Shown here piece by piece: positions 52,214-54,582 of a stretch of DNA of 64,000 bases. Source of the stretch: Heptranchias perlo (taxonomy: Eukaryota). The notes below the pieces were generated by a model, which saw nothing but the letters and a program-made list of their open reading frames with translations, was not told the origin of the DNA and ran no database searches. The stretch spans positions 35,650,001-35,714,000 of the forward strand of contig NC_090326.1 in the NCBI RefSeq assembly GCF_035084215.1, in the 5' to 3' direction. A program made the translations under genes and the position numbers. How positions within the stretch are numbered: position 1 is the stretch's first letter; every line of letters begins with the position of its first letter.

Positions 52214-54093
52214 CTGGAGTTTCTGGGTCCTGCTTGATCTTCCTGCCCCATTGGGCCTCATGGCCAGAGGAAATTTGGGGCCAAGGTCTTTGTAAAGAAA
52301 TGTAGTGGATATTTTAGTCTTAGAGCACAAAACACTATTATCTTTGAATACTTTCAATGCAAATGAAGACTTTCACAGCTTCTTGTGTACTATACAAAAA
52401 CAAATCCATGTTTGCATACATTACATACAAGGCTAGGACATAGATTGGGAGAGAGGATGTAGCAACTAGAATAGGATACCGTGTTCATGTCCTATGCCTT
52501 CTACTGGTATTTTCCCTTCCATGCCAGGTGAAAATGTTTTGTGATTCTGTGCACAGATCTGCATTGAGCAATTCTCCATGCACAGTGCACTCAAGATGCC
52601 AACAGTTTCGTACCTCATTTTCTTTTGTTCTTAATATGTTTGTTTAAAAATAAATAAATTAGTCTACAGCAAGAAATCTGGTTTGTCATTTCCTAGGTAG
52701 ATTTTATTGGTTTTGTTATTCTGTCGGTTTTATGGCATCACTACACCTTATTAAAGGAACAGTACATTGCTAGGTAGCTTCAATTCTTAAAACAAACTAA
52801 AAATTCTGTGCTGCTGCCATGGTAGCCATTAGGGATAAGCATCCCAGAGAGATTTAAGCCAAATTTCTTACAGTAGACAAATTCTTCTGTTGAATAGTGC
52901 TATTTTATTTTAAATATTCTCACTGCTTTTACTTTAATTGTGTAACAGCTCCACTAAAAAGCAAAGAGGAATTTCAGATGAACATGTTAAGCGTTCATAC
53001 ACTAATACCTACGCCTTAATTTCAGGGCCTAAGTTTTTAACTCTTGTGATGCAAGTGATAATATCATCAAATTATTGACTAATCACCTCATTGCAGCCTC
53101 CATGTATCAACATTGTATCACGCCTCACCAGTGGCAAAAAGAGGAAAAATCCTTTAAGCTGAGTGATCCCTCAAAAACATCAGAATCAGCAATGTTTCAT
53201 TTTTTTTTGTTTTTAAAAAAAAAATGGTTGCATGGTAGTAAACCTATTAACTGCACCTTTGTGACAGGAGTCAGTTACCTGTTGTACTCTCTCTCCTTCA
53301 ATTTGTCCAGTCCTATTAAAAGATGTGCTTATCTTCCAGTTTCCAGTTCTGATGAAACGCCCACTCCTAAAACATTAAACTCTTTTCAGATACTGTCATT
53401 TATTTCCAATATTTTCTGTTTTGTTCATTATGATGTATGAAATTACTGTTTCCAGTTATTATAGCATAAAGCCCAATTTGGGTCCAGCAAATTCAGTTTG
53501 TATTAGTTTGAACATTCATTGACATGGATTGGAGGTCAGAGTGTGGCAGCACATAGTAATGTACCAGCAGCTTTGACTGATTTGGGTTTTTTGGAAAATT
53601 AAAATAAATCTCATGCTCGTGGTTGGTGCCTCTATTTTAGATGGAAAATAAATATTTGTATAGTCCCATTATGAATTTAAAGCATCTAGGAGCTCATGCT
53701 GGTTACAGCACTAGGGGTTGCACAAATTATCATAATCCTAATGCATAATCAGCATCGTCGGAACAGATGAATTACCATCTGCTTTTAAAATCAAAACTGT
53801 GATCATGGCTACACCAGGGCACTTTCTTAACAGTTTTCCTGAATGCCAGCTCTTTCCTGATCAGAATTTATATTTTACCTTCTCACTTATCTCTTCTCTC
53901 CTAAAGATGGCAACTTGTGCTGGGGTACCATCTAAATTTAAATGAAAATCTGGGTTCAGTACCTGCATTGGTGTTACTGAAAATACATTCAAGTTCCACT
54001 GAGCAGCAGGAATGCAGATACCAAACACCATGAGTTGTAGATGCTTTTAAATTTATAATGATATTTACAGCATTGTCACTTGATATTCTGTAC

Positions 54094-54335
54094 TATTGTA
54101 AACAATTTTACAACACCAAGTTATAGTCCAGCAATTTTATTTTAAATTCACAAGCTTTCGGAGGCTTCCTCCTTCGTCAGGTGAACGATGTGAAAATTTT
54201 CACATCGTTCACCTGACGAAGGAGGAAGCCTCCGAAAGCTTGTGAATTTAAAATAAAATTACTGGACTATAACTTGGTGTTGTAAAATTGTTTACAATTG
54301 TCAACCCCAGTCCATCACCGGCATCTCCACATCAC
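54094..54335 (+). mobile_element. Palindromic Penelope-type short insertion with a hammerhead core on each strand
   Basis: TSD GATATTCTGTAC at 54082-54093 and 54336-54347. 102-bp arms with no loop (54095-54196 / 54197-54298), one mismatch seen. Confidence 0.88.
54208..54246 (+). ncRNA. Minimal hammerhead ribozyme motif (mirror copy at 54147-54185, minus strand)
   Basis: TTCAC-CTGACGA-A-GGAGG-AAG-CCTCC-GAAA-GCTT-GTGAA. Confidence 0.7.
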
Positions 54336-54582
54336 GATATTCTGTACAGCATTAATACCCAATACACTGGTGATTTCTGATTAAACACTGTGATCCTCCT
54401 GCCCCCCTGTGGACCAAATGCATATGCACATGTAAGTAGGCCTAAGAAAAGCTTTGTACCTAGGAATGCAAGCACAAATATAATCATGTCTAAGTGCAAC
54501 TGGTTAATTTATTTTTAATAACAACTGTATTTTCTGTTTCAACAGAATAGCTTATAATGAAAATTAGGAAAATGCACATTTC

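What the first reader, a model, noticed from the sequence alone, without database searches (positions are those of the whole stretch)
54082..54347. Young palindromic retro-insertion family with paired minimal hammerhead ribozymes
Seen: two near-identical copies in 64 kb (36577-36791 and 54094-54335). Each has a 12-bp TSD, the same outer arm boundary (ATTGTAAACAATTTT), the same ~36-bp unpaired tail and a different fold-back centre. This copy is a 204-bp loopless palindrome. Known: Penelope-like elements carry minimal type I hammerheads with palindromic stem III (here AAGCUU) that cleave as dimers, and often show inverted terminal structures. Inference: these are stereotyped non-coding products of Penelope retrotransposition in which the foldback is regenerated at each insertion, since the arms co-vary (CTGAGGA-type in one copy, CTGACGA-type in the other). 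They would also extrude cruciforms.
Basis: partly seen in the sequence, partly recalled or inferred. Interest (0 to 1): 0.7.

Follow-up and report, generated by a model that had tools for sequence, protein, structure and literature searches.

The report
Twin run-off Penelope palindrome stub
This 242-base mirror-image insertion is one of thousands of short stubs of a known kind of jumping gene (Penelope-like), and it was likely built on landing from two DNA copies of the first ~140 bases of that gene's RNA, one started from each cut DNA strand, which bears on the open question of how these elements make their inverted ends.

Summary
Observation confirmed, with small corrections. The two copies are the shortest insertion class of an abundant, partly very young Penelope-like retrotransposon (Neptune/Nematis-type linker), not a separate ribozyme family. 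The genome holds 30,849 exact tailed ends and intact 902-aa RT/GIY-YIG ORFs in 3.08-kb tandems. Inverted pLTR, one-sided 30-40-bp tail, TSD and minimal hammerhead are all published Penelope anatomy.

A sample of 100 insertions bears on mechanism. 72 have an inverted arm and a TSD. Arms of one insertion differ by 1.8%, against 10.2% between insertions. Either arm can reach far further than the other (13 versus 15 cases), which argues against simple fold-back. Short arms stop preferentially 30-31 nt behind a conserved TATA box, and both arms of this copy end there. 188 of 199 arms run through the predicted ribozyme cut. Best reading: both nicked strands prime on one uncut sense RNA, run off its 5' end and are joined head to head. 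The start site, priming and cleavage are inferred, not shown. The scan found this before, many times, in this and other genomes.

The parts
54082..54093 (+). Left copy of the 12-bp target-site duplication of copy A
54095..54196 (-). Inverted, tail-less arm of copy A. Its outer end lies about 35 nt before the element's ATG position; its inner end lies at the predicted transcription start (TATA+30)
54152..54180 (-). Minimal type I hammerhead core on the - strand (CUGACGA, stem II, GAAA, GCUU)
   Evidence: anatomy as
54196..54197 (.). Centre: a self-complementary AT shared by both arms. It is the first two bases of the predicted RNA 5' end on either strand (2-nt microhomology)
   Evidence: both arms match the long-copy haplotype to TATA+30; same centre type at 94 loci
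54197..54298 (+). Direct arm of copy A: the element's 5' leader / pLTR end in the sense of the ORF
54208..54246 (+). Minimal type I hammerhead on the + strand: stem I 54208-54212 with 54242-54246, CUGACGA 54213-54219, stem II 54221-54233, GAAA 54234-54237, palindromic AAGCUU, predicted cut after 54241
   Evidence: form described in PMC4209133
54299..54335 (+). One-sided tail. In full elements it ends at the start codon (54334 is the A of ATG; 54335 does not match the element)
   Evidence: (L014)
54336..54347 (+). Right copy of the target-site duplication of copy A
36563..36576 (+). Left copy of the 12-14-bp duplication of copy B
36577..36697 (-). Tail and direct arm of copy B, cut inside the hammerhead core
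36698..36791 (+). Tail-less arm of copy B, with the only complete hammerhead core of this copy (CUGAGGA at 36706)
36790..36803 (+). Right copy of the duplication of copy B (its first 2 nt are shared with the arm end)

Best explanation
This is a short, ORF-less insertion of an abundant Penelope-like retrotransposon, likely made when both nicked target strands primed reverse transcription on the same uncut sense RNA and both copies ran off its 5' end. Shown: family membership, the source ORF, TSDs of about 12 bp, two fixed outer ends (at the ATG, and about 35 nt before it), shared variants between arms, two-sided length asymmetry, and a stop peak at TATA+30/31. Inferred steps: (1) transcription starts about 30 nt behind the pLTR TATA box, so the mRNA opens with a leader of about 130-140 nt (hammerhead, then tail) before the ATG; (2) the endonuclease makes a staggered cut of about 12 bp; (3) one strand primes at the ATG and the other about 35 nt further 5'; (4) on the 5'-proximal leader both cDNAs run off after about 100-140 nt, whereas priming on a downstream leader of a tandem read-through RNA gives the long copies; (5) the two cDNA ends are joined head to head by microhomology or short templated filler. 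Copy A is the limiting case: both arms are complete to the predicted first base and overlap on AT. The stubs lack the TATA box and the ORF and are probably dead ends. The hammerhead is a passenger of the leader.
For: Source: ORF directly upstream of the same sequence, and tail running into ATG; 696 exact tail-ATG junctions; intact 902-aa ORFs in 3081-3083-bp tandems; RVT_1 E 3e-10; GIY-YIG E 6e-4, below the curated cut-off. Anatomy: 72 of 100 sampled insertions have an inverted arm and a TSD (66 by script, 6 added by hand). TSDs are 10-16 bp, 12 bp in 32 of 72. The inverted outer end lies at -33 to -41 in 59 of 72 (3 further in, 10 unresolved). 93 of 100 tails continue with the A of ATG. One template as a rule: arms differ by 1.8% within and 10.2% between insertions (62 of 72 compared, 10 too short). 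Only 103 of 4,075 short-centre loci disagree at the C/G site, against about 47% for random pairing (allele share from the first 50 loci). Two separate copying events: the inverted arm reaches more than 25 nt further in 13 of 72 and the direct arm in 15 of 72. In L198, L169 and L168 the direct arm is only 27-52 nt and cannot have templated an inverted arm of 84-126 nt. L300 has arms of two haplotypes (3 linked differences) meeting at the same AT centre, and L207 has 9 segregating differences. Run-off: a TATA-like box lies 35-45 nt before the core in the long-copy haplotypes (the screen required such a word). 26 of 85 assignable short arms stop at TATA+30/31, at 0.119 per base against 0.006 at +5 to +25. 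The best 2-nt window holds 26 arms relative to TATA and 18 relative to the hammerhead, and 0 of 5,000 permutations reach 26. Uncut RNA: 188 of 199 arms pass the predicted cut. In vitro precedent: a Poseidon protein nicks and extends both strands, starts at two sites flanking the tail, and does not need hammerhead cleavage (PMC11167929).
Against: The start site is predicted from TATA spacing only and was not mapped. The stop peak is broad: 17 arms stop at +26 to +29 and 29 at +32 to +46. 30 arms were dropped as unassignable. Subfamily assignment uses the same bases as the end call, so the permutation test is not fully independent. Long palindromes are unstable (general knowledge), so later asymmetric deletion could mimic two-sided asymmetry, and intrastrand conversion could mimic shared variants. 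24 of 30 C/G-discordant loci had fewer than two segregating differences between the arms, so most could be mutation. Private variants were in both arms 5 times and in one arm 28 times, which fits later mutation but does not separate the models. An extra G expected from a cap was ambiguous. 44 of 72 insertions are symmetric within 25 nt, as fold-back would also give. The sample was drawn through a flanking GATC and is enriched for one host repeat as target. The 60 added loci come from the first 7.6 Mb of one contig. The in vitro precedent is a Poseidon element with its start sites inside the ORF.
Confidence: 0.68

Rival explanations
1. Fold-back or self-priming: one cDNA (or an antisense RNA, as proposed in PMC3846280) folds back at its end and copies itself. 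The endonuclease then resolves the hairpin about 35 nt before the tail end. Later asymmetric deletions of the unstable centre give the varied arm lengths.
For: Arms share variants. 44 of 72 insertions are nearly symmetric. Centres often sit on short self-complementary words, for example AAGCTT in 23 of the first 50 loci. Head-to-head palindromes were read as self-priming in PMC3846280 (passages).
Against: It predicts one-sided asymmetry, but 13 versus 15 cases are seen, some over 1 kb with arms that still match with 0-1 differences per 100 nt (L118, L182, L178). Direct arms of 27-52 nt sit beside longer inverted arms. Two-haplotype insertions exist (L300, L207). An antisense template does not explain ends at the sense TATA+30.
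Confidence: 0.17
2. The stub is a non-autonomous mini-element (SINE- or retrozyme-like) that is transcribed and moved as a whole palindrome, using its hammerheads.
For: The centre type of copy A recurs at 94 loci. 46 of 72 two-arm insertions are 300 bp or shorter. Non-LTR retrozymes derive from PLE pLTRs (bioRxiv 10.64898/2026.07.22.740005, abstract and part 1 of 5).
Against: The same centre sits on at least four different haplotypes among 6 loci read. Centres are highly varied. The stubs lack the TATA box. Units are head to head, not tandem, and the sense hammerhead is predicted to be buried in the hairpin. Lengths grade into ORF-bearing copies.
Confidence: 0.07
3. Twin priming is right, but the short length is set by a reverse-transcriptase stall just 5' of the hammerhead structure, or by end resection during joining, and not by the RNA's 5' end.
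For: Ends spread over 0-20 nt 5' of the core. No RNA start was mapped.
Against: The commonest end moves with the TATA distance: 16 nt from the core in the 43-45-nt subfamilies, and 9 or 12 nt in the 38-41-nt ones.
Confidence: 0.07
4. Assembly artefact (fold-back chimera of long reads).
For: Perfect palindromes are a known artefact class (general knowledge). This locus was not bridged by an independent read set.
Against: Each palindrome is bounded by its own TSD, has fixed element ends and unique flanks on both sides, and has an internal mismatch; thousands of loci share the plan.
Confidence: 0.01

Closest known systems
Typical insertion of endonuclease-positive Penelope-like elements: inverted pLTR, 30-40-bp tail at one end, TSD (Pen2a_Av and relatives, PMC3846280; Fig. 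2 legend of PMC8557442; passages read)
   Same: Head-to-head inverted, tail-less copy next to a tailed direct copy; one TSD around the whole; TATA and Inr-like words in the pLTR; partial tandems.
   Different: Here most two-arm insertions are ORF-less stubs of 300 bp or less, counted in thousands, with inner ends peaking at TATA+30/31. PMC3846280 proposes self-priming on an antisense template; these data favour two cDNAs from a sense RNA.
Poseidon element PAc of Anolis, in vitro (PMC11167929; parts 1-2 of 4 read, supplements not seen)
   Same: Tail defined by two reverse-transcription start sites; both strands cut and extended; hammerhead cleavage not needed for insertion.
   Different: PAc starts 111-118 nt inside the ORF and its hammerhead overlaps the ATG. 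Here the tail ends at the ATG, the hammerhead lies 85-125 nt upstream, and the protein has a CX4CxxC linker. The parts read do not derive inverted arms from the two start sites.
Minimal type I hammerheads of metazoan PLEs (PMC4209133; parts 1-2 of 4 read)
   Same: Core boxes, extra base before stem II, palindromic 15.2-16.2 positions; dual motifs on opposite strands 100-700 bp apart were already noted there.
   Different: Stem II is 4-5 bp here. Activity is untested. The predicted cut follows CUU.
L1 twin priming (recalled, from no call)
   Same: Both target strands prime on one RNA, giving an inversion joined by microhomology; L198, L169 and L168 look like this.
   Different: In L1 the second primer anneals at variable sites and the parts do not overlap. 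Here the second start is fixed and the two cDNAs usually copy the same stretch, giving a palindrome.
Non-LTR retrozymes (bioRxiv 10.64898/2026.07.22.740005; part 1 of 5 read)
   Same: Non-coding, pLTR-related, type I hammerhead.
   Different: Retrozymes are head-to-tail tandems; these stubs are head to head. A 404-bp tandem array elsewhere in this genome (L104) fits the retrozyme layout better.

Membership tests
Endonuclease-positive Penelope-like element (source element) | Single ORF with reverse transcriptase and C-terminal GIY-YIG endonuclease | tested here: met
   902-aa ORF; RVT_1 E 3.3e-10; GIY-YIG E 5.6e-4, 20.6 bits against a cut-off of 22.6; VVY...YIG with two cysteines between, read directly
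Endonuclease-positive Penelope-like element (source element) | Tandem or partial-tandem units forming pLTRs | tested here: met
   Units of 3081-3083 bp in L101-L103; partial tandems L123 and L190
Endonuclease-positive Penelope-like element (source element) | Inverted 5'-truncated copy and 30-40-bp tail at one end, variable TSD | tested here: met
   72 of 100 insertions; TSD 10-16 bp
Neptune/Nematis clades | CX2-5CxxC linker between RT and endonuclease (PMC8557442) | tested here: met
   CX4CxxC motif before the GIY-YIG domain in all six complete ORFs printed
Neptune/Nematis clades | Placement in an RT phylogeny (Neptune versus Nematis) | not tested
   No tree was built; no named reference proteins were held
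Minimal type I hammerhead ribozyme | CUGANGA and GAAA-N-N-UH core with stems I and II | tested here: met
   69 of 100 direct arms parse (the pattern required GAAA); CUGANGA intact in 65 of 69; four inner pairs of each stem kept in 65-69 of 69; fold; no Rfam hit
Minimal type I hammerhead ribozyme | Compensatory changes in stems | tested here: inconclusive
   Two-sided change at stem II pair 5 only (G-C 34, A-U 19, C-G 2; 12 of 69 unpaired); other pairs change on one side to G-U; no phylogenetic control
Minimal type I hammerhead ribozyme | Self-cleavage as a dimer | not testable with these tools
   Needs an assay; 188 of 199 arms were copied through the predicted cut
Non-LTR retrozyme | Head-to-tail tandem units, each with a hammerhead | tested here: not met
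   Both window copies are single head-to-head insertions
Independent non-autonomous family (SINE- or MITE-like) | Fixed internal sequence inherited as a unit | tested here: not met
   Centres vary; one centre occurs on several haplotypes (6 loci only)

The most novel reading that the evidence does not exclude
The inverted pLTR of Penelope-like elements is made by programmed twin priming: a dimeric enzyme starts one cDNA at the start codon and one about 35 nt upstream on the same uncut sense RNA. The thousands of mini-palindromes are integrated 'strong-stop' pairs whose centres record the transcription start of each subfamily. This would replace the published antisense self-priming proposal and make the genome a ready-made map of the element's intermediates.
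Probability: 0.6. Interest if true: 0.6.

Novelty: new member of a known kind. Interest (0 to 1): 0.42.

Why it matters
The structure is ordinary for Penelope-like elements. How they make their inverted and tandem ends is called undefined in PMC8557442, and PMC3846280 leaves sense versus antisense template open. This family offers tens of thousands of ends that discriminate between the models, plus intact 902-aa source copies for an in vitro test. It also places thousands of near-perfect palindromes of about 200 bp in one vertebrate-sized genome, which could matter for DNA stability and for double-stranded RNA (untested).

Tried and rejected
(1) A systematic A/G difference between arms in the first loci was an ascertainment effect: the A form has 52 matches and the G form 47,834. 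(2) Centre set by hammerhead cleavage: only 200 loci match the pattern for centres at about -86 to -97, against 4,075 for centres just 5' of the core (the two patterns do not cover the same subfamilies). None of the first 50 listed is symmetric at the cut, and 23 centre on AAGCTT, which needs uncut RNA. About five have one arm ending at the cut, so rare cleavage is not excluded. (3) Cap-derived G: 21 of the first 50 of 81 loci have one G/C between two full arms, but the element's own upstream bases explain it as well, and no double-cap centre was among them. Inconclusive. (4) A-to-G excess in shared private variants: 2 of 5, too few. (5) RNA evidence: no RNA holder listed. The runs laid were contigs and cannot show starts. 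They did not cover the unique flanks of this locus, so the locus is not independently confirmed. (6) Rfam: no hammerhead model hit. No PDB sequence relative of the ORF at E<=0.01. (7) Literature: six searches. By titles and abstract starts, none showed a paper that derives PLE inverted pLTRs from twin priming or run-off at the transcription start. Subscription papers, such as the older Penelope reviews, are not in the library, and no supplements were read, so absence from print is not established.

Full report
1. Observation. Both copies are present as described. Copy A is 54094-54335, between 12-bp duplications at 54082 and 54336. Its two 102-bp arms meet without a loop at 54196/54197 and differ at one position, and a tail of about 37 nt follows. 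Copy B is 36577-36791 in the opposite orientation, with 85-bp arms, 9 nt between them and a 12-14-bp duplication. The hairpin of copy A folds at -170 kcal/mol against -43 for shuffles. Only copy A has a complete hammerhead core on both strands; the tailed arm of copy B starts inside the core. Rfam returned no hammerhead model. The motif has the published minimal form (PMC4209133) and folds with stems I and II as expected.

2. What it belongs to. The genome (3.25 Gb) holds 47,834 exact matches of an arm 25-mer, 30,849 exact arm-plus-tail words and 696 junctions where the tail runs into ATG. In loci L005, L008, L011, L023 and L024 the same sequence directly follows the end of an RT / GIY-YIG frame, and in L014 it runs into the start of that frame. 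Three loci hold head-to-tail units of 3081-3083 bp with intact 902-aa ORFs. Pfam finds RVT_1 and a sub-threshold GIY-YIG. A CX4CxxC linker precedes the endonuclease; it marks the Neptune and Nematis clades (PMC8557442). I built no tree. So each arm is the leader / pLTR end of a Penelope-like element, with the hammerhead in the sense of the ORF and the tail ending at the start codon.

3. Anatomy of a sample. I drew 100 of 125 tails through a pattern that fixes only a flanking GATC. This enriches one host repeat as target but does not select on the interior. 72 have an inverted arm and a TSD (66 by script, 6 added by hand). Of the other 28, 10 were single arms with a TSD at their 5' end, and most of the rest were unresolved within 5.5 kb. 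TSDs are 10-16 bp with a mode of 12. The inverted arm ends 33-41 nt before the ATG position in 59 of 72, and 93 of 100 tails continue with the A of ATG. Insertions run from 91 bp to 4.5 kb, and 46 of 72 are 300 bp or shorter. The window's copies are therefore the common short class of a continuum. This layout is the published typical Penelope structure (PMC3846280; PMC8557442). Dual minimal hammerheads on opposite strands 100-700 bp apart were noted in PMC4209133.

4. One template, two copying events. Arms of one insertion differ by 97 of 5,405 aligned bases (1.8%), against 10.2% between insertions (62 of 72 compared). Genome-wide, 103 of 4,075 short-centre loci disagree at the CUGA(C/G)GA site. 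Random pairing would give about 47%, using 38 C alleles in 100 from the first 50 loci. So the arms nearly always share a source. Yet neither arm is simply a copy of the other: the inverted arm reaches more than 25 nt further in 13 of 72, the direct arm in 15, and 44 are within 25 nt. In L198, L169 and L168 the direct arm is 27-52 nt while the inverted arm is 84-126 nt. A few insertions join two haplotypes: 6 of 30 discordant loci have two or more segregating differences, L207 has nine, and L300 has three linked differences with a perfect AT centre. Against this reading, most discordant loci differ at one site and may be mutations, and later deletion or conversion inside palindromes cannot be excluded from one assembly.

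5. Why the stubs are this long. Long copies carry a TATA-like box 35-45 nt before the hammerhead core, the distance differing by subfamily (the screen required such a word). Among 159 insertions (100 plus 59 from one contig, 1 duplicate dropped), 53 arms run through the TATA box, 85 stop short of or near it and can be assigned, and 30 were dropped as ambiguous. 26 of the 85 stop at TATA+30/31. The stop rate there is 0.119 per base, against 0.030 at +32 to +35, 0.051 at +26 to +29 and 0.006 at +5 to +25. The peak is sharper relative to TATA (26) than to the hammerhead (18), and 0 of 5,000 permutations reach it, though assignment and end call share bases. TATA+30 is the usual spacing of a start site (established knowledge). 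Both arms of copy A match the long-copy haplotype exactly to +30 and share the AT there. That centre type recurs at 94 loci, on at least four haplotype combinations among 6 loci read, as expected if it is rebuilt from a fixed RNA end. No RNA data could test the start.

6. The ribozyme. Core and stems are conserved across subfamilies, with one two-sided change and several G-U changes, so the motif looks maintained in the source lineage. It does not shape these insertions: 188 of 199 arms pass the predicted cut, and centres near the cut are few and mostly on the AAGCTT word that lies before it. This agrees with the in vitro finding that hammerhead cleavage is not needed for Poseidon insertion (PMC11167929). 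The two motifs of copy A cannot form a cis dimer, because they lie on opposite strands and a read-through RNA is predicted to be one long hairpin.

7. Mechanism. Most likely (0.68): staggered cut, priming of both target strands on one uncut sense RNA at two fixed points that flank the tail, run-off at the RNA's 5' end, head-to-head joining. The two fixed points match the two start sites measured in vitro for PAc. Priming on a downstream leader of a tandem read-through RNA would give the long and partial-tandem copies. Rivals: fold-back or antisense self-priming with later deletion (0.17), a mobile mini-element (0.07), a stall instead of run-off (0.07), an artefact (0.01).

8. Known, novel, score. 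The element type, layout and ribozyme are known, so this is a new member of a known kind. The twin run-off reading was not found in six literature searches, which miss subscription papers. Papers seen: PMC11167929 parts 1-2 of 4; PMC4209133 parts 1-2 of 4; PMC8557442 and PMC3846280 passages; bioRxiv 2026.07.22.740005 part 1 of 5; no supplements. L1 twin priming is recalled. I noted the reading before looking at earlier scan notes, which report the same anatomy and similar mechanisms in 235 findings from at least 33 genomes and in many from this genome. Those notes are not independent support. Interest 0.42.

Noticed in passing
L104 (G000:C2:21272000-21277500): Ten head-to-tail units of 404 bp, each with hammerhead, arm end and tail, nine running into the ORF start. 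This is a retrozyme-like tandem derived from the same element.
   Followed up: no
L101-L103: Head-to-tail arrays of full-length 3081-3083-bp units with intact, near-identical 902-aa ORFs; candidate source loci.
   Followed up: partly
L007, L015, L025, L028, L158, L181: Centres with short templated repeats of nearby arm sequence, resembling synthesis-dependent end joining (the resemblance is recalled).
   Followed up: no
L105-L204 right junctions: The target often continues the element's ATG context: 48 of 100 match 3 or more further bases, which suggests primer annealing. No chance control was run, and the sample is target-biased.
   Followed up: partly
window 32418-33416 (+): Open frame with GFO/IDH/MocA C-terminal domains (E 1e-21), probably the last coding exon of a GFOD-like host gene (name recalled); copy B lies about 3 kb downstream.
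   Followed up: no
window 5220-6074 (+) and 7826-8998 (-): Myb/SANT-like frame and DDE_Tnp_4 frame facing each other, the layout of a Harbinger/PIF DNA transposon (recalled).
   Followed up: no
window about 47300-50600: Purine-rich 34-bp minisatellite of about 90 copies, about 95% alike.
   Followed up: no
window 2157-3411 and 39061-40314: Two LINE-like RT fragments, 95% alike, in opposite orientation.
   Followed up: no
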